Of a DNA stretch of 64,000 bases, positions 41,021-58,447 are shown one piece after another. Under the pieces are notes generated by a model. The model was not told the origin of the DNA. It was given only the letters and a program-made list of their open reading frames with translations, and did no database searches. The position numbers and the translations under genes are program-made. The first letter of the stretch is position 1; every line of letters starts with the position of its first letter. Origin of the DNA: Escherichia coli (GTDB lineage: Bacteria > Pseudomonadota > Gammaproteobacteria > Enterobacterales > Enterobacteriaceae); NCBI RefSeq assembly GCF_003018255.1, contig NZ_CP027440.1. The stretch is one strand, 5' to 3'.

Positions 41021-41692
41021 ATGAATCTTAAAAATCTGCAACGTTATACTCCTGAGAAGTCGGATGTTCCGGGGGCAATGTACCTGAAGGCAGAGGATGG
41101 CCGTGACTGGTATGAAAGCCAGTCGTCATTTAAGGCGGATACGCTGAAGCTGGTTTATGACAGCGAAGGCATAATCACGAGTATCAGTAAGGATGTGTCG
41201 ATGCTGTGGCCAGTGGGACAGAGTGTGGTGGAGGTTGAGGATACAGAAGAAAACCGCAAAGCTGATATCTCCGGGCGCTGGAAGTTTGACGGGGAAAAAG
41301 TCGTTGATACTCTGACCGCGGAGAAAGCGCGCGGGATGAAGGGCGATGAAATAAACGCGTGGCGTAATGCGATGGAGGCGGCGAACTACACGTTTGAGCA
41401 CAATGGCCGGAAATGGGACTACGGAAAGTCAACGCAGACGCGTCTTGAGCCATCGGTGGCGGCAGCGAAAGCGGGGAAACTGCCGGAGGCGTTTTTCTGG
41501 ACGGATGCGGAAAACAATGATGTACAGGTGACAGCAGAAGAGCTTATTGCGCTGAGTGAAGCGGCAGAGCAGGCGATGTTCAGCAAAGGGATGGAAATCC
41601 ACATTCGCCAGCGCACCATGAAGAAGGACCTGGAATCGCTGAGCAGTGCGGATGAGATCCTGGTATACAGGGTTGGCTGGGCACAGGAATAA
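41021..41692 (+). CDS. tail fibre assembly / DUF4376-like protein
   Basis: 223 aa immediately downstream of the fibre gene. The call rests on position and loose resemblance only. Confidence 0.5.
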   Translation: MNLKNLQRYTPEKSDVPGAMYLKAEDGRDWYESQSSFKADTLKLVYDSEGIITSISKDVSMLWPVGQSVVEVEDTEENRKADISGRWKFDGEKVVDTLTAEKARGMKGDEINAWRNAMEAANYTFEHNGRKWDYGKSTQTRLEPSVAAAKAGKLPEAFFWTDAENNDVQVTAEELIALSEAAEQAMFSKGMEIHIRQRTMKKDLESLSSADEILVYRVGWAQE

Positions 41693-41739
41693 CAGACAAA
41701 AAGATGGGGGACCATCACCTCCCCCATGAACTGCGTTGA

Positions 41740-42003
41740 TTATGTCATTATTGTGAAGATATACACTATGCCGGGTAAATAGTGCCACGGAAAAGTTAAT
41801 TCCGGAAGTGACGGAACTCTCATTTTTCGTGCATCCTGTTGATATGGATGATTTTTCAGATTTTCGGAAGTCCGTATTTTTTCCCAGACATTTTGAAGCG
41901 TTTGCTTAATGAACGTATGTGCAGGCTCTTTATCTACGGCTCTTAAAATTGAGAGTCTATCATTGCTGGAGCCTGTGACAATTACGTCCAGGAAGAACTG
42001 CAT
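41740..42003 (-). CDS. hypothetical 87-aa protein (possibly a gene remnant)
   Basis: AT-rich, weak RBS. Lies downstream of, and could be co-transcribed with, the ORF6N gene. Confidence 0.25.
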   Translation of the reverse strand: MQFFLDVIVTGSSNDRLSILRAVDKEPAHTFIKQTLQNVWEKIRTSENLKNHPYQQDARKMRVPSLPELTFPWHYLPGIVYIFTIMT

Positions 42004-42099
42004 AACCTGGATGATTTACGCTCAATCAGAGAGAGGGCGATTAGCGGCAATCACGCTTGATAAAATTAACCCCAGTGATCATCCGGGGTTTTGCAATCA

Positions 42100-42660
42100 T
42101 TAAAACCGCATCAACCGTTCTACCAGTTGTTCTTTACGGGCAACGATCCAGCCGTGTTGCTCCAGATAAAATTTAAACCGCTCCAGAGTGCATACCATCG
42201 CATCGGCGGGGACTTTTTCTGTGAACTCTACCTGACCGTGTTTATCAAAGTGGATCAGTAATGCGCATCCATCATTTGGGGTGGGGGAGTTTTGTGTTGC
42301 TGGTGGTTGTTTATGGCTGAAATAACAGTCTTCCAGTTTTTCGAACACTTCCCACGCCTGATCGGTTTCGAGCATTTTTGCATGGCGGGCAGCGCCACGT
42401 TCTGTCCAGAGGATAAGGGAGCGGGCATTTTTACCAACTAACCCGATTGTTTCGGGTCTGTTCTTAAACTCGCGTAATTCGTTTTTTTCAATTTTAAAGT
42501 AATGCTTTCCTACCACGAATCGCGTCGTGTTGTTCAGAAAGTTATCAGAAATGTTTTTGATTTTTGTTCCGTATAACTGCGCCAGAAGTTCAGTTGTAAT
42601 AACGGGGATCTGGTTGTGGGTGATTGCAGGAAGAGTGTCGACAGAAATTTGAGTGGTCAT
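42100..42660 (-). CDS. ORF6N / KilA-N(Bro-N)-superfamily antirepressor-like protein
   Basis: 186 aa from ATG 42660 (SD GGAG 8 nt upstream). NQIPVITTELLAQLYGTKIKNISDNFLNNTTRFVVGKHYFKIEKNELREFKN is typical of the ORF6N DNA-binding domain. Confidence 0.7.
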   Translation of the reverse strand: MTTQISVDTLPAITHNQIPVITTELLAQLYGTKIKNISDNFLNNTTRFVVGKHYFKIEKNELREFKNRPETIGLVGKNARSLILWTERGAARHAKMLETDQAWEVFEKLEDCYFSHKQPPATQNSPTPNDGCALLIHFDKHGQVEFTEKVPADAMVCTLERFKFYLEQHGWIVARKEQLVERLMRF

Positions 42661-42714
42661 AACGATAACTCCGTACATTTGAAAATTATCGCCACCTTCA
42701 GGTTCCAATCATCA

Positions 42715-42791
42715 TGGTGGCGAACTGTGCGGGGTTGGAACTACCGGGTACGGAAACCGGCGAGCCTTTCGGCTCCCCCACACAGCCCGCC
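42715..42791 (-). ncRNA. C4-type antisense RNA (P1/P7 immI-like), 77 nt
   Basis: 16-bp closing stem GGCGGGCUGUGUGGGG/CCCCGCACAGUUCGCC followed by ACCA. Inner hairpins are GAGCC-GAAA-GGCUC and CCGG-UUUCCGUAC-CCGG. Single-stranded AGUUCCAA and the loop are complementary to sites flanking the element on both sides. Confidence 0.65.
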
Positions 42792-42824
42792 ATAAATCGC
42801 GAATGTGACTGTGCAAACGATATG

Positions 42825-42901
42825 AAAAAAGACGCGGGCGCGTCTCATATCGCTCCGTAAACATCCGGGGTTCCAATCCCGACGCCAGATTTTGCTGACG
42901 C
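42825..42901 (-). ncRNA. short terminated leader RNA carrying the a1/b1 decoy sites
   Basis: From the predicted TSS (~42901) to the terminator GACGC-GCCC-GCGUC plus U6 (42846-42825). Contains GAUUGGAACC (42878-42869) and UUACGGAG (42860-42853). Confidence 0.5.
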
Positions 42902-42907
42902 GTTGGA

Positions 42908-42937
42908 AATATAGCCCCGGAGGATAAAAACTGTCAA
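42908..42937 (-). promoter_or_regulatory. strong sigma70 promoter of the immI-like operon
   Basis: Minus strand: TTGACA (42937-42932), 18-bp spacer, TATATT (42913-42908). Confidence 0.65.
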
Positions 42938-43130
42938 CGGGTAAAAAAATTTCCGTTATCAGGAATGTATAAAATTAAAGCAATCGAGCAAAAAAACTCT
43001 CTGCAAAACTAAAAAAGATCTCAATAAAATCAGGCAGTTAAAAACACGGAAAAACGGTATAAAAAAGCATCTCAAAATCCTGTTTTTTCTTTCAGATACA
43101 ATATGTTATTGCATTTTTTAAAACCTGCCA

Positions 43131-43247
43131 GTCTGGTACATGGATATTGATACCACTGCCAATTATAAACTGGGCGGTGCACAGCAACACGATAGCGTAC
43201 GCCTCGATCCGTGGGTGTTTATGTTCTCAGCAGGATATCGTTTTTAA
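43131..43247 (+). pseudogene. ompW: 3' fragment of ompW (last 38 codons), separated from the rest of the gene by the prophage
   Basis: Translates to VWYMDIDTTANYKLGGAQQHDSVRLDPWVFMFSAGYRF*, the remembered K-12 OmpW C-terminus. The upstream in-frame sequence hits TAA at 43119-43121. Confidence 0.85.
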
Positions 43248-43261
43248 TTCCGCACAAAAAT

Positions 43262-43281
43262 GACCCCGTAATTACGGGGTC
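43262..43281. terminator. bidirectional terminator between ompW and yciE
   Basis: Perfect palindrome GACCCCGTAATTACGGGGTC. Confidence 0.7.
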
Positions 43282-43305
43282 AATAAGGACATGGTATAAA
43301 GGGTA

Positions 43306-43812
43306 TTATTTCTTCGCTTCTACGCCATCAGTTTCAGAGCGAATTAAGAATTTCTCAGTTGTTTGCGGAATATGCTGAATTAGCCAGTCGGCCATGTGCT
43401 TTTCATCATTTAAAATCGCTTCGATAATCGGAATTGAGGCTGTATCACCGGCATTTTTTGCTGCTGCTAAGAGTGAGGTATAACAGGCGATTTCAAATTG
43501 CTCGAAGACATATCCGCTAATAGAGCCTTTGACTATTTCATCAGAAGGGAATATACCACCGATTGACTGCCCAAGTGCAGCCATTTTACTCATGGAATCT
43601 TTAATGACTGAACGTGAAATGTCATTACGATCAAGAATAGTTTCCAGTTGAACAATCTGGTTTTTGGTTTCACTAAGATGTTGTTCAATACGAGCGCGTA
43701 GTTCAGGATAATTATCTATACGACTGGCCATGGATTCAAGCATTGATTCGGCTTGCTTTTCCATTGCGTGGGCGTCACGTAACCAGTCATGATAATGTTC
43801 AATACGATTCAT
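43306..43812 (-). CDS. yciE: YciE (ferritin-like, DUF892)
   Basis: 168 aa; matches remembered K-12 YciE and the ompW-yciE-yciF-yciG-trpA synteny. Confidence 0.9.
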   Translation of the reverse strand: MNRIEHYHDWLRDAHAMEKQAESMLESMASRIDNYPELRARIEQHLSETKNQIVQLETILDRNDISRSVIKDSMSKMAALGQSIGGIFPSDEIVKGSISGYVFEQFEIACYTSLLAAAKNAGDTASIPIIEAILNDEKHMADWLIQHIPQTTEKFLIRSETDGVEAKK

Positions 43813-53333: not shown

Positions 53334-55229
53334 ATGGCAGGGATATATCGCTGCATTTTGCTGTTGATAGTTGGGCTTTTTTTCTCTTCGTTGAGTTATC
53401 CGAAAAACACGGAGATCCCTTTTTATGAAGAAGGGATCTCGCTCTTTGATGTTGAAGCCACTCTGCAACTGGATGGGGTGCTCGACATCAAAGAAAATAT
53501 TCATTTTCAGGCGCGAAATCAGCAGATTAAGCATGGATTTTATCGTGATTTACCACGACTCTGGATGCAGCCTGATGGGGACGCTGCACTGCTGAACTAT
53601 CATATTGTTGGCGTCACCCGTGATGGTGTTCCTGAACCCTGGCATCTTGACTGGCATATCGGTTTAATGAGTATCGTCGTGGGCGATAAACAACGTTTCT
53701 TGCCTCAAGGTGACTATCATTATCAAATTCATTATCAGGTTAAAAATGCTTTCCTGCGTGAGGGAGATTCTGATCTGTTAATCTGGAACGTGACCGGTAA
53801 CAAGTGGCCGTTTGAAATCTATAAGACCCGATTTTCTCTCCAGTTGCCTGATATTGCGGGTAATCCATTTAGCGAAATTGATCTCTTTACTGGAGAAGAG
53901 GGCGACACATATCGAAATGGCCGCATCCTTGAGGACGGAAGAATTGAATCCCGCGATCCGTTTTATCGTGAAGACTTCACGGTCCTCTATCGCTGGCCTC
54001 ACGCTTTACTTGGTAATGCCCCGGCACCACAAACGACGAATATTTTCAGCCATCTTCTTTTACCCTCCACGTCATCGTTGTTAATTTGGTTTCCGTGTCT
54101 ATTCCTGGTTTGTGGATGGTTATATCTCTGGAAGCGCAGGCCGCAATTTACGCCGGTAGATGTGATTGAAACCGATGTCATTCCGCCAGATTACACGCCC
54201 GGCATGTTACGTCTCGATGCGAAGCTGGTTTACGACGATAAAGGTTTTTGTGCCGATATCGTAAATCTGATTGTGAAAGGAAAAGTTCATCTGGAAGATC
54301 AGTATGACAAGAACCAGCAAATCCTGATTCGTGTTAATGAAGGCGCGACCAGAAATAATGCGGTATTACTGCCCGCAGAGCAGTTATTACTGGAAGCGTT
54401 ATTTCGTAAAGGCGATAAGGTCGTTCTTACGGGGAGACGCAACAGAGTCTTACGCAGTGCATTTTTACGGATGCAGAAATTTTATCTGCCGCGTAAAAAG
54501 TCTTCGTTTTACCGACCTGATACGTTTTTGCAATGGGGCGGAATGGCAATATTGGCGGTCATTCTCTACGGTAACCTGAGTCCCGTAGGCTGGGCAGGAA
54601 TGAGTCTGGTGGGCGATATGTTTATTATGATCTGCTGGCTTCTTCCTTTTTTATTTTGTTCCCTTGAGCTTTTGTTTGCCCGCGATGATGACAAGCCTTG
54701 CGTTAATCGTGTAATCATCACTTTGTTTTTACCACTGATTTGTTCAGGTGTGGCCTTCTATTCTCTCTATATCAATGTCGGAGATGTATTCTTTTACTGG
54801 TATATGCCAGCGGGTTATTTTAGCGCTGTTTTCCTGACCGGTTATCTCACTGGCATAGGGTATATTTTTCTGCCAAAGTTTACCCAAACTGGGCAGCAAC
54901 GTTATGCCCACGGTGAAGCTATCGTTAACTATCTTGCGCGTAAAGAGGCGGCAACACACAGTGGGCGGCGGCGGAAAGGGGAAACACGGAAACTGGATTA
55001 CGCGTTGTTAGGTTGGGCGGTCTCGGCAAACCTTGGCAGAGAATGGGCAGCACGTATCACCCCATCACTCACAGCGGCTGTTAGCGACCCGGAAATTGCC
55101 CGTAGTGGCGTTTTATTCTCATTGCAGACGCACCTGAGTTGCGGGGCCTATACCAGTTTGTTGGGGCGGAGCTATTCCGGTGGTGGTGCTGGTGGCGGTG
55201 CAGGTGGCGGAGGCGGCGGTGGCTGGTAA
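53334..55229 (+). CDS. yciQ: YciQ (DUF2207 membrane protein)
   Basis: 631 aa with a Gly-rich C-terminus; synteny with yciO/rluB. Confidence 0.9.
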   Translation: MAGIYRCILLLIVGLFFSSLSYPKNTEIPFYEEGISLFDVEATLQLDGVLDIKENIHFQARNQQIKHGFYRDLPRLWMQPDGDAALLNYHIVGVTRDGVPEPWHLDWHIGLMSIVVGDKQRFLPQGDYHYQIHYQVKNAFLREGDSDLLIWNVTGNKWPFEIYKTRFSLQLPDIAGNPFSEIDLFTGEEGDTYRNGRILEDGRIESRDPFYREDFTVLYRWPHALLGNAPAPQTTNIFSHLLLPSTSSLLIWFPCLFLVCGWLYLWKRRPQFTPVDVIETDVIPPDYTPGMLRLDAKLVYDDKGFCADIVNLIVKGKVHLEDQYDKNQQILIRVNEGATRNNAVLLPAEQLLLEALFRKGDKVVLTGRRNRVLRSAFLRMQKFYLPRKKSSFYRPDTFLQWGGMAILAVILYGNLSPVGWAGMSLVGDMFIMICWLLPFLFCSLELLFARDDDKPCVNRVIITLFLPLICSGVAFYSLYINVGDVFFYWYMPAGYFSAVFLTGYLTGIGYIFLPKFTQTGQQRYAHGEAIVNYLARKEAATHSGRRRKGETRKLDYALLGWAVSANLGREWAARITPSLTAAVSDPEIARSGVLFSLQTHLSCGAYTSLLGRSYSGGGAGGGAGGGGGGGW

Positions 55230-55439: not shown

Positions 55440-56315
55440 ATGAGCGAAAAGCTACAGAAAGTGCTGGCGCGTGCCGGCCACGGTTCTCGCCGTGAAATCG
55501 AATCTATTATTGAAGCCGGTCGTGTGAGTGTTGATGGCAAAATTGCTAAACTCGGCGATCGTGTTGAAATTACCCCTGGATTGAAAATCCGTATCGATGG
55601 TCACCTGATTTCGGTACGTGAGTCCGCTGAACAAATTTGTCGCGTTCTGGCCTATTACAAACCGGAAGGTGAGTTGTGTACCCGTAACGATCCGGAAGGG
55701 CGTCCAACGGTGTTTGACCGTCTGCCAAAGCTGCGTGGCGCACGCTGGATTGCCGTAGGTCGTCTGGACGTTAACACCTGTGGTCTGCTGCTGTTCACCA
55801 CCGACGGTGAACTGGCAAACCGTTTAATGCATCCAAGCCGTGAAGTTGAACGTGAATATGCCGTGCGTGTATTTGGTCAGGTTGACGACGCGAAACTGCG
55901 TGATTTGAGTCGTGGCGTGCAGCTGGAAGATGGTCCGGCAGCCTTTAAAACCATCAAGTTCAGCGGCGGCGAAGGGATCAACCAGTGGTACAACGTAACT
56001 CTGACCGAAGGCCGTAACCGTGAAGTTCGTCGTCTTTGGGAAGCGGTTGGTGTGCAGGTAAGCCGCCTGATCCGTGTTCGTTACGGTGATATCCCACTGC
56101 CGAAAGGTCTGCCACGCGGTGGCTGGACGGAGCTGGATCTCGCCCAGACTAACTATCTGCGCGAACTGGTGGAGCTACCGCCAGAAACCAGCTCTAAAGT
56201 CGCTGTAGAAAAAGACCGTCGTCGTATGAAGGCGAATCAGATTCGTCGAGCGGTTAAGCGTCACAGTCAGGTGAGCGGCGGTCGTCGTTCTGGCGGACGT
56301 AATAATAACGGTTAA
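55440..56315 (+). CDS. rluB: 23S rRNA pseudouridine-2605 synthase
   Basis: 291 aa, [33 protein letters not shown]... Confidence 0.97.
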
Positions 56316-56337
56316 TTTAAGATAAGTATAAAATAAA

Positions 56338-56356
56338 GGCCCTGCGGGGCCTTTTC
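56338..56356 (+). terminator. rluB terminator
   Basis: GGCCC-TGCG-GGGCC hairpin followed by TTTT. Confidence 0.7.
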
Positions 56357-56484
56357 TTCATTTGAAGCATGATAAATAGTCGCAGTATTTTAATTTAATT
56401 TCATACTTGCTTATGAATAATACCCGGAAATAGCCACATTACTATTTAATTATCTGAGATAAACTCAACGTCAAGAGGTGGGTT

Positions 56485-57486
56485 ATGATTAGATATAGTG
56501 GAATATTTCTATCGCTGTTAATGCTTTCAGGTTGTGCAACCGAAGCATTGAAAAACGAACAAGCTGAAACTGTTATTACTGCGGGTAACAAAGCAGTAGC
56601 GGCGAATGCAAGTTTCTTTAAACAATACTATGCTTCTCGTGAAAACTTCCTTGTTAATTTCTACGCGACTAATCCGGATTGTGCCCTGCGACCTGATTAT
56701 ACCATTGATATAGGCGGTGATGGGAATGGCGGAAAATTATGCCAGCGTTCAGGGCCAAATACAAAACAAGTACAATTAGTCCCTTTCGAGAAAGAAAAAT
56801 TACTGGCTTCAATGGAAGTCATTAATAGCATGAGCGCTTATGTGGAACTTCTGACAAAGGATATGGCAACTACGGAAAGTCAGCAAGTGGCATTACTTAA
56901 ACAGGCTCTGGATCACGCAAACAACGCACAAACACTACTTGGTGTTTCACATAGCAAAGATTTAGCTCAATCTGCAGCAGCGGTTAAAGATTTGGTAAAT
57001 TATTTCAATGAGTTATATATAATTAAAGTCAATTCTGGAAAAATAGGCAAAACGGTAGATGAAAACTGGGTAAGACTTATAAAAAACATGACTGTTTTGC
57101 GTAATGATATTTATACAAAAGGCGATAAGATTGAAAATTATACCTTTGCGAATGTACATAATAATATGATTTATTATAATGCGGTATCTAAAAACTCTAA
57201 GAATACAGAGTTTAACACTCTGAAAAACAGGAAGGAGTTTCTAAGTTCAGTAATCAATGTGAATGAAACCAGACTACAGGCATCGGCACCTGCCATGCCT
57301 GCGATTGAGGCTTTGAATGCCTTTATAGATAAGGGTGATTATCTGAAAAGCTTATACGTTAATAAAACACGCACGGCAGCTGAACAAAAAAGATTAAATG
57401 AAATATTACGCGCACAGGTCATTAGTGGGTTAAAGGCGTCTGAGGGGCTGGCAAAATTACTTATTGCCAGCGGAATAATGTTATAG
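56485..57486 (+). CDS. hypothetical lipoprotein (islet gene 1)
   Basis: 333 aa. Lipobox LLMLSG|C. Asn/Lys-rich and strongly AT-rich. No family recognised. As far as I recall, absent from K-12 between rluB and btuR. Confidence 0.65.
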   Translation: MIRYSGIFLSLLMLSGCATEALKNEQAETVITAGNKAVAANASFFKQYYASRENFLVNFYATNPDCALRPDYTIDIGGDGNGGKLCQRSGPNTKQVQLVPFEKEKLLASMEVINSMSAYVELLTKDMATTESQQVALLKQALDHANNAQTLLGVSHSKDLAQSAAAVKDLVNYFNELYIIKVNSGKIGKTVDENWVRLIKNMTVLRNDIYTKGDKIENYTFANVHNNMIYYNAVSKNSKNTEFNTLKNRKEFLSSVINVNETRLQASAPAMPAIEALNAFIDKGDYLKSLYVNKTRTAAEQKRLNEILRAQVISGLKASEGLAKLLIASGIML

Positions 57487-57496
57487 GAGGCTTTTT

Positions 57497-57805
57497 ATGA
57501 ACGATGTGCAAAACCGTAGAATACTGGCATTACTTGATATGCTGTATAATACTTTGGGTAATAAAACCACATGTAATGTTTGTCATAAATATTTTATCCT
57601 TATCCTCACGGTGATGAACAATCTGACGATTAACTACGGTACTGAAACTTCGCCAGAGTTAAGCGGAATCAGTTATGAAGATGCCAATGCGTTAATTACT
57701 GAACTGATATTATTTATTGAAGATGTTGACGCTGAGAATCATGAAGCATATCAGGGACATTTGAATGAGATTACACGTATTCTGAATTTCGCTATTGCCG
57801 CTTGA
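57497..57805 (+). CDS. hypothetical 102-aa protein (islet gene 2)
   Basis: SD AGGAGG; starts 10 nt after gene 1. No family recognised. Confidence 0.55.
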   Translation: MNDVQNRRILALLDMLYNTLGNKTTCNVCHKYFILILTVMNNLTINYGTETSPELSGISYEDANALITELILFIEDVDAENHEAYQGHLNEITRILNFAIAA

Positions 57806-57819
57806 ATATAATCATGATT

Positions 57820-57853
57820 AAAGCACCTCAAGAGGCTTCTTTTGAGGTGCTTT
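57820..57853. terminator. bidirectional terminator between the islet and btuR
   Basis: AAGCACCTCAA-gaggcttctt-TTGAGGTGCTT hairpin, flanked by A/T runs. Confidence 0.7.
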
Positions 57854-57856
57854 CAC

Positions 57857-58447
57857 TTAGTAGTCAATCCCTATCTGCGCTTTTACACCGGCATCAAACG
57901 CATGTTTCACGGGGCGTAATTCACTCACCGTATCCGCCAGTTCAAGAATATCCCGATGACAGCCTCGACCCGTGATAATCACCGTCTGTTGATGTGGACG
58001 TTCATTTAACGCCTGCACCACTTCTTCCAGTGGCAAATAGTCATACGCCACCATATACGTCAGTTCATCGAGCAAAACCATATCCAGTGAAGGATCGGCC
58101 AGCATTCGTTTGGCATGTTGCCAGACTTCACGGCAGGCCGCGGTATCAGATTCGCGATTTTGTGTATCCCAGGTAAAGCCCGTTGCCATCACCTGAAACT
58201 CAACGCCATGTGGCTCCAGTAGATTGCGCTCGCCATTAGGCCAGGTGCCTTTAATAAACTGCACGATACCCACTTTTTTGCCATGGCCTACTGCACGAGT
58301 TGCCGTACCAAATGCCGCGGTGGTTTTGCCTTTTCCATTGCCGGTAAAGACGATGATAATACCGCGCTCATCCTGGGCCTGGGCCACACGAGCATCGACT
58401 TTTTCTTTCACTCGCTGCTGACGCTGTTGGTAGCGTTCATCACTCAT
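57857..58447 (-). CDS. btuR: cob(I)yrinic acid a,c-diamide adenosyltransferase
   Basis: 196 aa, MSDERYQQRQQRVKEKVDARVAQAQDERGIIIVFTGNGKGKTTAAFG... Confidence 0.95.
   Translation of the reverse strand: MSDERYQQRQQRVKEKVDARVAQAQDERGIIIVFTGNGKGKTTAAFGTATRAVGHGKKVGIVQFIKGTWPNGERNLLEPHGVEFQVMATGFTWDTQNRESDTAACREVWQHAKRMLADPSLDMVLLDELTYMVAYDYLPLEEVVQALNERPHQQTVIITGRGCHRDILELADTVSELRPVKHAFDAGVKAQIGIDY

What the first reader, a model, noticed from the sequence alone, without database searches (positions are those of the whole stretch)
56316..57856. AT-rich two-gene islet (lipoprotein plus 102-aa protein) inserted between rluB and btuR
As far as I recall, in K-12 the rluB terminator is followed almost directly by the convergent btuR. 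Here ~1.5 kb of markedly AT-rich DNA encodes a 333-aa lipoprotein (LSG|C; Asn/Lys/Ala-rich, predicted mostly helical) and a tightly coupled 102-aa protein (10-nt spacing, AGGAGG RBS). A perfect bidirectional terminator closes the insert. No mobility gene or flanking repeats are visible, and neither protein matches a family I know. A compact operon with foreign composition in a core intergenic site is a typical signature of a small accessory system (defence, or toxin/immunity pair). I cannot support any specific function.
Basis: partly seen in the sequence, partly recalled or inferred. Interest (0 to 1): 0.5.

Follow-up and report, generated by a model that had tools for sequence, protein, structure and literature searches.

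The report
Uncharacterised lipoprotein gene pair, variably present
Between two housekeeping genes sits a real, AT-rich two-gene unit (an outer-membrane lipoprotein plus a small helical protein) that only about a quarter of E. coli strains carry, in three ancient versions. It belongs to an undescribed family that elsewhere rides in a prophage and next to anti-phage genes, so it is a reasonable but unproven candidate for a phage- or competitor-related envelope system.

Summary
Window 56316-57856 is the lowest-GC 1.5 kb of the window (36.7% vs 51.7%). It encodes a 333-aa lipoprotein (LSG|C) and a translationally coupled 102-aa protein between rluB and btuR/cobO; K-12 and CFT073 have 39 bp there.

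It is not a recent insertion. Of 5426 complete E. coli genomes, 4183 have the empty junction and 1237 the pair, as three allele classes (424 / 776 incl. ST131 / 34), with no alternative cargo. The same pair, at the same junction, occurs in E. whittamii, E. albertii and one Citrobacter. Alleles differ by saturated dS (>=1), more than the flanking genes differ between genera. Both genes are under purifying selection (omega 0.1-0.25).

No Pfam, NCBIfam, PADLOC, PHROG or PDB match exists. A profile search found about 30 distant full-length lipoproteins sharing three invariant Cys. In 10 of 11 distinct contexts with readable downstream sequence, a homologous ~100-aa ORF follows. One pair lies in the S|V moron site of a P2-like prophage, one beside Hachiman, one near SoFic/VapBC, and one near a colicin-DNase/immunity pair and TacAT.

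Best reading (about 0.35): an envelope-acting phage-exclusion or conflict module held as an old balanced polymorphism. Function is untested.

The parts
56335..56354 (.). Hairpin AAAGGCCCTGCGGGGCCTTT directly after the rluB stop. It is terminator-like on both strands and marks the left edge of the islet.
   Evidence: 8 pairs, 5 GC, T-run on both strands. Conserved in Escherichia and Citrobacter.
56355..56484 (+). AT-rich 5' non-coding region (GC 0.325 for 56316-56484) with blocks conserved between Escherichia and Citrobacter (TAGTCGCAG; AATTT(A/C)ATTTCATACTTGCT(T/C)ATGAA; AGGTGGG RBS). Presumed promoter/operator.
   Evidence: Alignment of left junctions. The strict sigma-70 scan found no site here. 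No Rfam family reaches threshold.
56485..57486 (+). Gene for a 333-aa lipoprotein precursor. It has a signal peptide and lipobox LSG|C (Cys17 codon 56533-56535) with Ala at +2. The mature part is all-helical, with invariant Cys66 and Cys86.
   Evidence: omega is about 0.24 between alleles.
56485..56700 (+). Codons 1-72. The protein sequence is identical in all E. coli alleles, with 0 nonsynonymous against 2-10 synonymous differences. A recombination breakpoint follows.
56701..57384 (+). Codons 73-300, the allele-specific variable body. dN is 0.2-0.5 and dS is saturated between allele classes A, B and C. It includes the Cys66-Cys86 loop region and an indel after it.
57485..57490 (+). AGGAGG ribosome-binding site overlapping the lipoprotein stop codon, 6 nt before the ATG of the second gene.
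   Evidence: Equivalent tight spacing occurs in homologous loci.
57497..57805 (+). Gene for a 102-aa protein without signal peptide or TM segment. The model is a confident four-helix bundle. A CxxCH motif (Cys26, Cys29, His30) is conserved in the enterobacterial members.
   Evidence: pLDDT 92.2. omega is 0.1-0.15. It is homologous to the partners of distant lipoproteins.
57820..57853 (.). Near-perfect hairpin (15-nt arms, one G-U) flanked by an A-run and a T-run. It is a shared bidirectional terminator for the pair and for convergent btuR/cobO, and marks the right edge of the islet.
   Evidence: I3. Conserved in Escherichia alleles.

Best explanation
SHOWN. This is a self-contained, translationally coupled two-gene operon. 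Gene 1 encodes a Sec/SPase-II lipoprotein precursor (lipobox LSG|C). By the +2 rule (Ala, no Asp) it should go to the outer membrane. Its mature part is an elongated all-helical protein with two invariant cysteines (Cys66, Cys86), which fits a periplasmic disulfide loop. Gene 2 encodes a ~100-aa four-helix-bundle protein with no export signal. The pair is one unit of an undescribed family scattered through Proteobacteria. In Escherichia and one Citrobacter it occupies one fixed site, rluB|btuR, as an old presence/absence and multi-allele polymorphism under purifying selection.

INFERRED. It is a conflict module, most likely an envelope-level phage-exclusion or defence system. The conserved N-terminal helix and disulfide loop of the lipoprotein would dock on a conserved envelope component. 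The allele-specific helical body would determine which invader is blocked, either at adsorption or at genome entry. The small cytoplasmic partner would act at the inner face of the membrane as regulator, sensor or neutraliser. In one homologue the partner position holds a 269-aa protein with apparent transmembrane helices; its homology to the small partners is unproven. Negative frequency-dependent selection by phages would explain the ancient alleles and the null allele.
For: Real coding pair. omega is 0.24 (lipoprotein) and 0.1-0.15 (small gene), and codons 1-72 show 0 nonsynonymous against 2-10 synonymous changes.

Module conservation. Distant lipoproteins (17-26% identity; invariant Cys17, Cys66, Cys86, Tyr119) are followed within 1-25 nt by a 96-107-aa ORF in 10 of 11 distinct contexts with readable downstream sequence. 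These partners form one homology network (window vs prophage partner E 5e-7).

Mobile or conflict contexts.
- Between gpS and gpV of a P2-like prophage in Buttiauxella (GC 0.36 in a 0.55-0.57 prophage). This is one of the three known P2 moron sites (PMC6823313).
- Adjacent to Hachiman HamA/HamB and an integrase in Klebsiella variicola.
- 3.8 kb from SoFic, with VapBC and a Y1 transposase, in Methylomonas.
- Beside a colicin-DNase/immunity pair, TacAT and transposases.

Population pattern.
- 77% empty, 7.8% allele A, 14.3% allele B, 0.6% allele C.
- Both states occur within phylogroup B2.
- Allele dS >= 1 exceeds rluB dS between E. coli and Citrobacter (0.83).
- Allele A co-diverges with its flanks in E. 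whittamii, and allele B in E. albertii.
Against: There is no phenotype data of any kind. No homology to any PADLOC, Pfam, PHROG or PDB entry was found.

The family is absent from 50,697 phage genomes, from IMG/VR and from true plasmids. The phage link therefore rests on one prophage lineage.

Only about six informative neighbourhoods were read, and one of them (Pantoea) looks housekeeping, so the association is anecdotal.

No window of the gene shows dN/dS > 1.

Allele C combines its own lipoprotein body with an A-type C-terminus and small gene. The variable body therefore need not co-vary with the partner.

A cytoplasmic partner for an outer-membrane lipoprotein has no obvious mechanistic logic. 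The lipoprotein model is poor (pLDDT 45.7).
Confidence: 0.35

Rival explanations
1. Host-interaction or surface factor. The lipoprotein is surface-exposed or envelope-modifying, comparable to the prophage or plasmid lipoproteins Bor/Iss or TraT that give serum resistance or surface exclusion. Its ancient allele classes would reflect antigenic or niche diversification. The small protein would be a cytoplasmic chaperone or regulator.
For: Outer-membrane sorting signal and an allele-variable body behind an invariant N-terminus. Allele B is carried by the pandemic ExPEC lineage ST131 and related human isolates. Prophage morons often encode such lipoproteins (established knowledge; P2 moron site).
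Against: Other ExPEC such as CFT073 lack it. Carriers come from gulls, horses, pigs, wastewater and other sources. Homologues occur in environmental Methylomonas, Pantoea and GC-rich soil-type bacteria. There is no evidence of surface exposure, and no dN/dS > 1.
Confidence: 0.2
2. Interbacterial-competition function. Either the periplasmic lipoprotein is an (orphan) immunity protein against envelope-targeting toxins such as T6SS or bacteriocin effectors, or the pair is a toxin/immunity couple.
For: Periplasmic or lipoprotein immunity proteins are common for envelope-acting effectors (established knowledge). One homologue lies beside a colicin-DNase/immunity pair. Another lies directly downstream of a phosphoesterase-family (PF04185) gene and an unknown 413-aa gene. 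The allelic diversity and tight two-gene coupling also fit.
Against: No effector, secretion-system or known toxin/antitoxin domain lies next to the E. coli copy. The two products are predicted to be in different compartments, which does not suit a cognate toxin-immunity pair. Allele C is a mosaic that breaks strict co-variation.
Confidence: 0.15
3. Ordinary envelope-physiology genes of the Escherichia/Citrobacter ancestor that are dispensable and are being lost. On this reading the accessory contexts elsewhere are incidental.
For: The chromosomal site and a homologous upstream non-coding block are shared across genera. Allele divergence tracks the flanks between species. There are no mobility genes or repeats. 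The Pantoea homologue sits among transporter genes.
Against: The pair is absent from nearly all species representatives, with 3 hits among 185,579 species. GC remains at 36.7% despite the age of the locus. Homologues occur in a prophage moron site and in defence or TA islands. Three deeply diverged alleles plus a null are maintained within one species.
Confidence: 0.15
4. Non-functional relic or spurious ORFs in AT-rich spacer DNA.
For: Every source annotates both genes as hypothetical. Some copies are disrupted by IS1 or truncated.
Against: omega is 0.1-0.25. ORFs are intact in the large majority of carriers. The lipobox, cysteines and gene order are conserved down to 17-26% identity. The small protein gives a confident fold at pLDDT 92.
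Confidence: 0.03

Closest known systems
Moron cargo at the S|V (orf30) site of P2-like phages
   Same: A homologous lipoprotein + ~96-aa pair lies exactly between the tail-completion gene S and baseplate gene V of a P2-like prophage. It is a low-GC insert with its own signals. This site is one of three recognised moron regions (PMC6823313).
   Different: The window copy is not in a prophage; it lies between core genes with no phage genes nearby. P2 orf30 itself is an unrelated 261-bp ORF. The anti-phage hotspot validated in P2-like phages by Rousset et al. (PMC9122126) is a different one, next to cos.
Phage or plasmid outer-membrane lipoproteins that exclude invaders or protect the cell (T5 Llp, phi80/N15 Cor, F TraT, lambda Bor/Iss)
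   Same: A lipoprotein with an outer-membrane sorting signal, carried by mobile elements and acting (as proposed here) at the envelope.
   Different: No sequence match. Those are single small genes (roughly 60-250 aa, from memory), whereas this is a 333-aa helical protein with an obligatory small cytoplasmic partner. The resemblance is by analogy only.
Two-gene anti-phage systems found in defence islands (e.g. Hachiman, SoFic neighbours)
   Same: A compact operon with patchy distribution and AT-rich composition. Family members are adjacent to Hachiman and close to SoFic.
   Different: None of the 5027 PADLOC models matches either protein. No enzymatic, NTPase or nuclease domain is present. No known defence system (to my knowledge) pairs an outer-membrane lipoprotein with a ~100-aa helical protein.
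Four-helix-bundle executioner domains (MLKL 4HB, plant CC/CC-R, HeLo-like)
Balanced multi-allele loci at fixed core-genome sites in E. coli (e.g. fliC, O-antigen, hsd immigration-control region)
   Same: Conserved flanks and gene ends, deeply diverged central alleles shared across species, mosaic recombinants, and a null state.
   Different: The gene content and presumed function are unrelated. This is a comparison of population pattern only, recalled from general knowledge.

Membership tests
Bacterial lipoprotein (SPase II / Lgt substrate) | N-terminal signal peptide ending in a lipobox [LVI][ASTVI][GAS]C | tested here: met
   MIRYSGIFLSLLMLSG|C: basic n-region, hydrophobic core, L-S-G-C. The Cys is invariant in all 19 aligned family members.
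Bacterial lipoprotein (SPase II / Lgt substrate) | Outer-membrane sorting (no Asp at +2 in Enterobacteria) | tested here: met
   +2 is Ala in the window protein, and no family member has Asp at +2. The localisation itself is inferred from the Lol rule.
Bacterial lipoprotein (SPase II / Lgt substrate) | Actual lipidation and membrane localisation | not testable with these tools
   Needs globomycin or palmitate labelling and fractionation.
Known anti-phage defence systems (PADLOC-DB v2.0.0) | HMM match of at least one component to a defence-system model | tested here: not met
   0 families for both window proteins at E <= 1. Only scattered single-member chance hits appear for 19 family members.
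Known anti-phage defence systems (PADLOC-DB v2.0.0) | Recurrent location in defence islands or prophage hotspots | tested here: inconclusive
   Of about 6 long contexts: Hachiman adjacent, SoFic 3.8 kb away, P2 moron site, TA/bacteriocin island, one housekeeping-like, and the core rluB|btuR site. This is too few for statistics.
Known anti-phage defence systems (PADLOC-DB v2.0.0) | Protection against phage infection | not testable with these tools
   Requires plaque, adsorption and injection assays.
Prophage moron | Insert between conserved phage genes, with own composition and signals, dispensable for the phage | tested here: not met
   Met for the Buttiauxella homologue (between gpS and gpV, GC 0.36 vs 0.55-0.57). 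Not met for the window copy, which is flanked by rluB and btuR with no phage genes.
Mobile genomic island / insertion | Integrase or transposase, flanking direct repeats, tRNA or att site | tested here: not met
   None found in or beside the islet. The empty site carries an unrelated 39-bp spacer rather than a scar.
Mobile genomic island / insertion | Presence/absence polymorphism with atypical composition | tested here: met
   1237 filled vs 4183 empty of 5426 genomes. GC 0.367 vs 0.517.
Type II toxin-antitoxin pair | Recognisable toxin and antitoxin domains, with both products cytoplasmic | tested here: not met
   No Pfam or NCBIfam domain. Gene 1 is an exported lipoprotein.
Phage exclusion lipoproteins (Llp, Cor) and other phage lipoprotein families | Sequence similarity to the family | tested here: not met
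   Pfam and PHROGs gave nothing beyond weak signal-peptide-only matches (phrog_890 'lipoprotein', E 0.13, residues 8-31; NF040598, E 0.24, residues 3-37).
MLKL-4HB / CC / HeLo-like membrane-disrupting bundles | Specific structural similarity above generic helical bundles | tested here: inconclusive

The most novel reading that the evidence does not exclude
The pair founds a previously undescribed class of envelope-acting anti-phage (or anti-competitor) system. In this class an outer-membrane helical lipoprotein carries an allele-specific recognition body. A small cytoplasmic four-helix-bundle partner, possibly membrane-active like MLKL/CC bundles, completes the system. The class spreads as prophage moron and defence-island cargo. 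In Escherichia it has been held for longer than the species have existed as a balanced A/B/C/null polymorphism at a core-genome site, including in pandemic ST131.
Probability: 0.25. Interest if true: 0.75.

Novelty: new variant of a known kind. Interest (0 to 1): 0.5.

Why it matters
If the pair is a defence or exclusion system, it adds a new architecture (outer-membrane lipoprotein plus small helical partner) to the bacterial immune repertoire. It would also bear on phage therapy, because ST131 and about a quarter of E. coli carry it.

Whatever the function, the locus is a clean natural experiment. One fixed core site holds three alleles older than the species plus a null allele, and K-12 is a ready-made empty background. 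Allele-swap tests of frequency-dependent selection are therefore straightforward.

It also defines a family of about 50 clusters with no Pfam entry and gives it a conserved partner and invariant residues.

Tried and rejected
- Family databases. Pfam, NCBIfam, PADLOC and PHROGs on both proteins and on 19 family members gave nothing meaningful.
- PDB sequence profiles gave nothing below E 0.06.
- Phage and plasmid carriage. There are no hits in INPHARED or IMG/VR. The 'plasmid' hits are mislabelled chromosome fragments.
- Wider locus retrieval. The metagenome scan with P0052 found nothing. Alignments A4 and A5 were too divergent for locus retrieval.
- Alternative cargo at the rluB|btuR site was rejected: empty plus filled account for 5420 of 5426 genomes.
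- Positive selection. No region shows dN/dS > 1 with Nei-Gojobori counts, but between-class dS is saturated, so the test is weak.
- Rfam found nothing in the conserved 5' region.
- Literature searches by accession, gene neighbours or concept found nothing about this pair.
- A spanin or lysis role was considered and rejected. The prophage copy lies outside the lysis cassette, and the C-terminal hydrophobic tail is too short and not conserved across the family.
Full report
1. WHAT IS IN THE SEQUENCE

The finding is accurate.
- rluB ends at 56315 and a hairpin follows at 56335-56354.
- A 333-aa ORF (56485-57486) begins MIRYSGIFLSLLMLSG|C.
- A 102-aa ORF (57497-57805) starts 10 nt after the first gene's stop, with AGGAGG overlapping that stop.
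- A 15-nt-arm hairpin (57820-57853, one mismatch) precedes the convergent btuR/cobO gene at 57857-58447.
- The segment has 36.7% GC against 51.7% for the window. It is the lowest-GC 1541-nt stretch in all 64 kb. GC3 is 0.32-0.34 against 0.48-0.49 in the flanking genes.
- There are no direct repeats, integrase or transposase.
- K-12 MG1655 and CFT073 have only an unrelated 39-bp spacer with its own hairpin at this position.

2. DISTRIBUTION IN E. COLI

Counts are over 5426 complete genomes.

| State at rluB|btuR | Genomes |
|---|---|
| Empty K-12-type junction | 4183 |
| Any match to the islet | 1237 |
| Allele A (window type) | 424 |
| Allele B (includes ST131) | 776 |
| Allele C | 34 |

- The site is therefore binary: empty, or this same pair. 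It is not a hotspot with alternative cargo.
- All alleles share the 5' region and the first 72 codons. The protein is identical there and the DNA is about 96-98% identical. They then diverge abruptly to about 64-67% protein identity over the whole protein (roughly 55% beyond codon 72).
- Allele C has its own central body but an A-type C-terminus and small gene, so it is a mosaic.
- Within phylogroup B2, ST131 carries allele B while CFT073 is empty.
- A few copies carry IS1 insertions.

3. AGE AND SELECTION

- Between allele classes, dS is 0.9-1.3 or saturated and dN is 0.21-0.25, giving omega of about 0.24 for the lipoprotein and 0.1-0.15 for the small gene.
- For comparison, rluB dS is 0.04-0.09 within E. 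coli, 0.64-0.73 to E. albertii and 0.80-0.86 to Citrobacter.
- The alleles are thus at least as old as the genus.
- Each allele class co-diverges with its flanks across species.
  - Allele A in E. whittamii has lipoprotein dS 0.21 against rluB 0.23.
  - Allele B in E. albertii has lipoprotein dS 0.93 and small-gene dS 0.45 against rluB 0.64 and btuR 0.86.
- Citrobacter sp. ANG330 carries a 50%-identical pair at the same junction with a recognisably homologous upstream non-coding block.
- Codons 1-72 show no nonsynonymous change against 2-10 synonymous changes within class A.
- No window reached dN/dS > 1.
- btuR shows unusually high synonymous divergence among E. coli strains (0.16-0.32). This fits linked old polymorphism or imported segments.
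- Only three of 185,579 species representatives carry a close relative, so the pair is phyletically rare despite its age.

4. THE PROTEINS

Neither protein matches Pfam, NCBIfam, PADLOC, PHROGs or any PDB sequence.

The word-indexed search found only Escherichia/Citrobacter relatives. A full HMM scan of 1.8 billion representatives with the A1 profile found 56 hits. About 30 of these are full-length 324-357-aa proteins at 17-26% identity. All of those aligned have a lipobox. The invariant residues are Cys17, Cys66, Cys86 and Tyr119. Sources name them only 'hypothetical'. They come from Buttiauxella, Raoultella, Klebsiella, Rahnella, Pantoea, Methylomonas and GC-rich uncultured bacteria.

AlphaFold gave a low-confidence, all-helical model for the lipoprotein (pLDDT 45.7). 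It has nine to ten helices and a beta-hairpin in and just after the Cys66-Cys86 loop. The 102-aa protein gave a confident four-helix bundle (pLDDT 92.2). Fold searches returned only generic helical bundles.

From the lipobox, Ala at +2 and the paired invariant cysteines, I infer an outer-membrane-anchored, disulfide-bonded periplasmic (or surface) protein. The partner has no signal peptide or TM segment, so I infer that it is cytoplasmic.

5. THE PAIR IS A CONSERVED MODULE

In 10 of 11 distinct contexts with readable downstream sequence, the lipoprotein gene is followed within 1-25 nt by a 96-107-aa ORF. In one further locus (L020) the contig ends at the lipoprotein gene.

These partners are very divergent but form one connected homology network. 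Examples are window vs the Buttiauxella partner at E 5e-7 (2e-5 in the all-vs-all run), L013-L026 at 3e-6 and L008-L012 at 4e-8. Most keep a cysteine at the end of helix 1.

In the remaining GC-rich locus the partner position holds a 269-aa protein. Its C-terminal half looks, by eye, like several transmembrane helices. Its similarity to the small partners is not significant (E 0.05-0.09).

6. CONTEXTS ELSEWHERE

- **Buttiauxella agrestis.** The pair (GC 0.36) lies between tail-completion gene S and baseplate gene V of a P2-like prophage (GC 0.55-0.57). The structural genes are 74% identical to Peduovirus phages. PMC6823313 lists this S|V (orf30) position as one of three moron regions of P2-like phages.
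- **Klebsiella variicola.** The pair lies next to Hachiman (HamA E 1e-135, HamB E 9e-279) and an integrase, in an island beside proBA.
- **Methylomonas.** The pair is 3.8 kb from SoFic (E 1.5e-116), with VapBC, a Y1 transposase and a MazG_C protein nearby. It is directly downstream of a phosphoesterase-family gene and an unknown 413-aa gene.
- **A metagenomic enterobacterial contig.** The pair lies beside a colicin-DNase/immunity pair, SRAP, TacAT and transposases.
- **Pantoea.** The neighbours are mainly transporters plus an H-NS paralogue.
- **Absences.** The family is absent from sequenced phage isolates, IMG/VR and genuine plasmids.

7. INTERPRETATION

Shown: a functional, ancient, polymorphic two-gene module of an undescribed family, consisting of an exported lipoprotein and a small helical partner.

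Inferred: a role in genetic conflict. The arguments for this are as follows.
- Phyletic rarity and patchy distribution.
- Persistently low GC.
- Carriage as a prophage moron and beside recognised defence, TA and bacteriocin genes.
- Long-lived multiple alleles plus a null allele at one site.

I commit to an envelope-level phage-exclusion or defence mechanism at about 0.35. In this model the invariant N-terminal helix and disulfide loop dock on a conserved envelope component. The variable helical body sets specificity. The small partner acts at the cytoplasmic side.

The weaknesses are as follows.
- There are no phenotype data and no homology to any known system.
- The phage link rests on one prophage lineage.
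- Only about six neighbourhoods were read.
- No positive selection was detected.
- There is no clear logic linking a cytoplasmic partner to an outer-membrane protein.

Rivals and their probabilities:
- A host-interaction or surface lipoprotein: 0.2.
- An interbacterial immunity or toxin-immunity function: 0.15.
- A dispensable ancestral envelope gene pair being lost: 0.15.
- A relic: 0.03.

8. COMPARISON WITH KNOWN SYSTEMS AND NOVELTY

By analogy the pair resembles mobile-element lipoproteins that act at the envelope (Llp, Cor, TraT, Bor) and compact defence-island operons. It fails every sequence-based membership test run here. It also differs in architecture, being a large helical lipoprotein with an obligatory ~100-aa partner.

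I found no paper on it.

I rate it a new variant of a known kind, namely a small accessory conflict-type module. Interest is moderate (0.5). It is a well-defined, easily testable candidate present in ST131 and about 23% of E. coli, but its function is unproven.

Noticed in passing
window 41700-43300: A second AT-rich stretch (GC about 0.40) between an ompW-like ORF (41021-41692 +) and yciE (43306-43812 -). It carries a 202-aa ORF (42100-42708, -) with a Pfam ORF6N domain (E 1.8e-20). In CFT073 ompW and yciE are only about 59 nt apart, so this looks like another small accessory islet in the same window.
   Followed up: partly
window 57857-58447 (btuR/cobO): Synonymous divergence of btuR among E. 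coli strains is high (dS 0.16-0.32), while rluB on the other side of the islet shows 0.04-0.09. This could be linked old polymorphism or imported segments next to the polymorphic pair.
   Followed up: no
window 56355-56484; L022 left junction: Non-coding blocks upstream of the lipoprotein gene are conserved between Escherichia and Citrobacter (TAGTCGCAG; AATTT(A/C)ATTTCATACTTGCT(T/C)ATGAA), although dS in the flanking rluB is 0.8 and is saturated in the lipoprotein gene. This is a likely promoter/operator. The strict sigma-70 scan and Rfam found nothing.
   Followed up: partly
window 57572-57586 (codons 26-30 of the 102-aa gene): The enterobacterial small proteins carry an invariant CxxCH motif plus His88. 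More distant partners keep only a single Cys at the end of helix 1. A metal, redox or heme-like site is possible but was not tested.
   Followed up: no
L017:2171-2980: In one GC-rich homologous locus the partner position holds a 269-aa protein. Its C-terminal half looks, by eye, like several transmembrane helices. Similarity of its N-terminus to the ~100-aa partners is not significant (E 0.05-0.09), and Pfam finds nothing.
   Followed up: partly
L014:5108-7960: In Methylomonas the pair lies immediately downstream (40 nt) of an unknown 413-aa gene. That gene is itself preceded by a phosphoesterase-family (PF04185) gene. This may be a larger operon in that lineage. PADLOC matched neither protein, and Pfam found nothing in the 413-aa protein.
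   Followed up: partly
L023:2898-3632; hits H30, H70: The E. albertii type strain has the lipoprotein gene truncated at 244 codons. A few E. coli genomes have IS1 inserted in the pair. Loss of function is therefore tolerated.
   Followed up: no
PLSDB records NZ_CP134663.1, CP054253.1, CP054249.1: The 'plasmid' records that matched the lipoprotein look like chromosome or chromosome fragments. NZ_CP134663.1 is 4.9 Mb. The 33-kb CP054249.1 carries the trp operon. The 252-kb CP054253.1 was not inspected. They are not evidence of plasmid carriage.
   Followed up: partly
window 53334-55229 (yciQ): The 631-aa DUF2207 gene yciQ upstream of rluB is also below-average in GC (0.43-0.47). It ends in a Gly-rich tail (GGGAGGGAGGGGGGGW). 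Citrobacter sp. ANG330 lacks yciQ between yciO and rluB.
   Followed up: no
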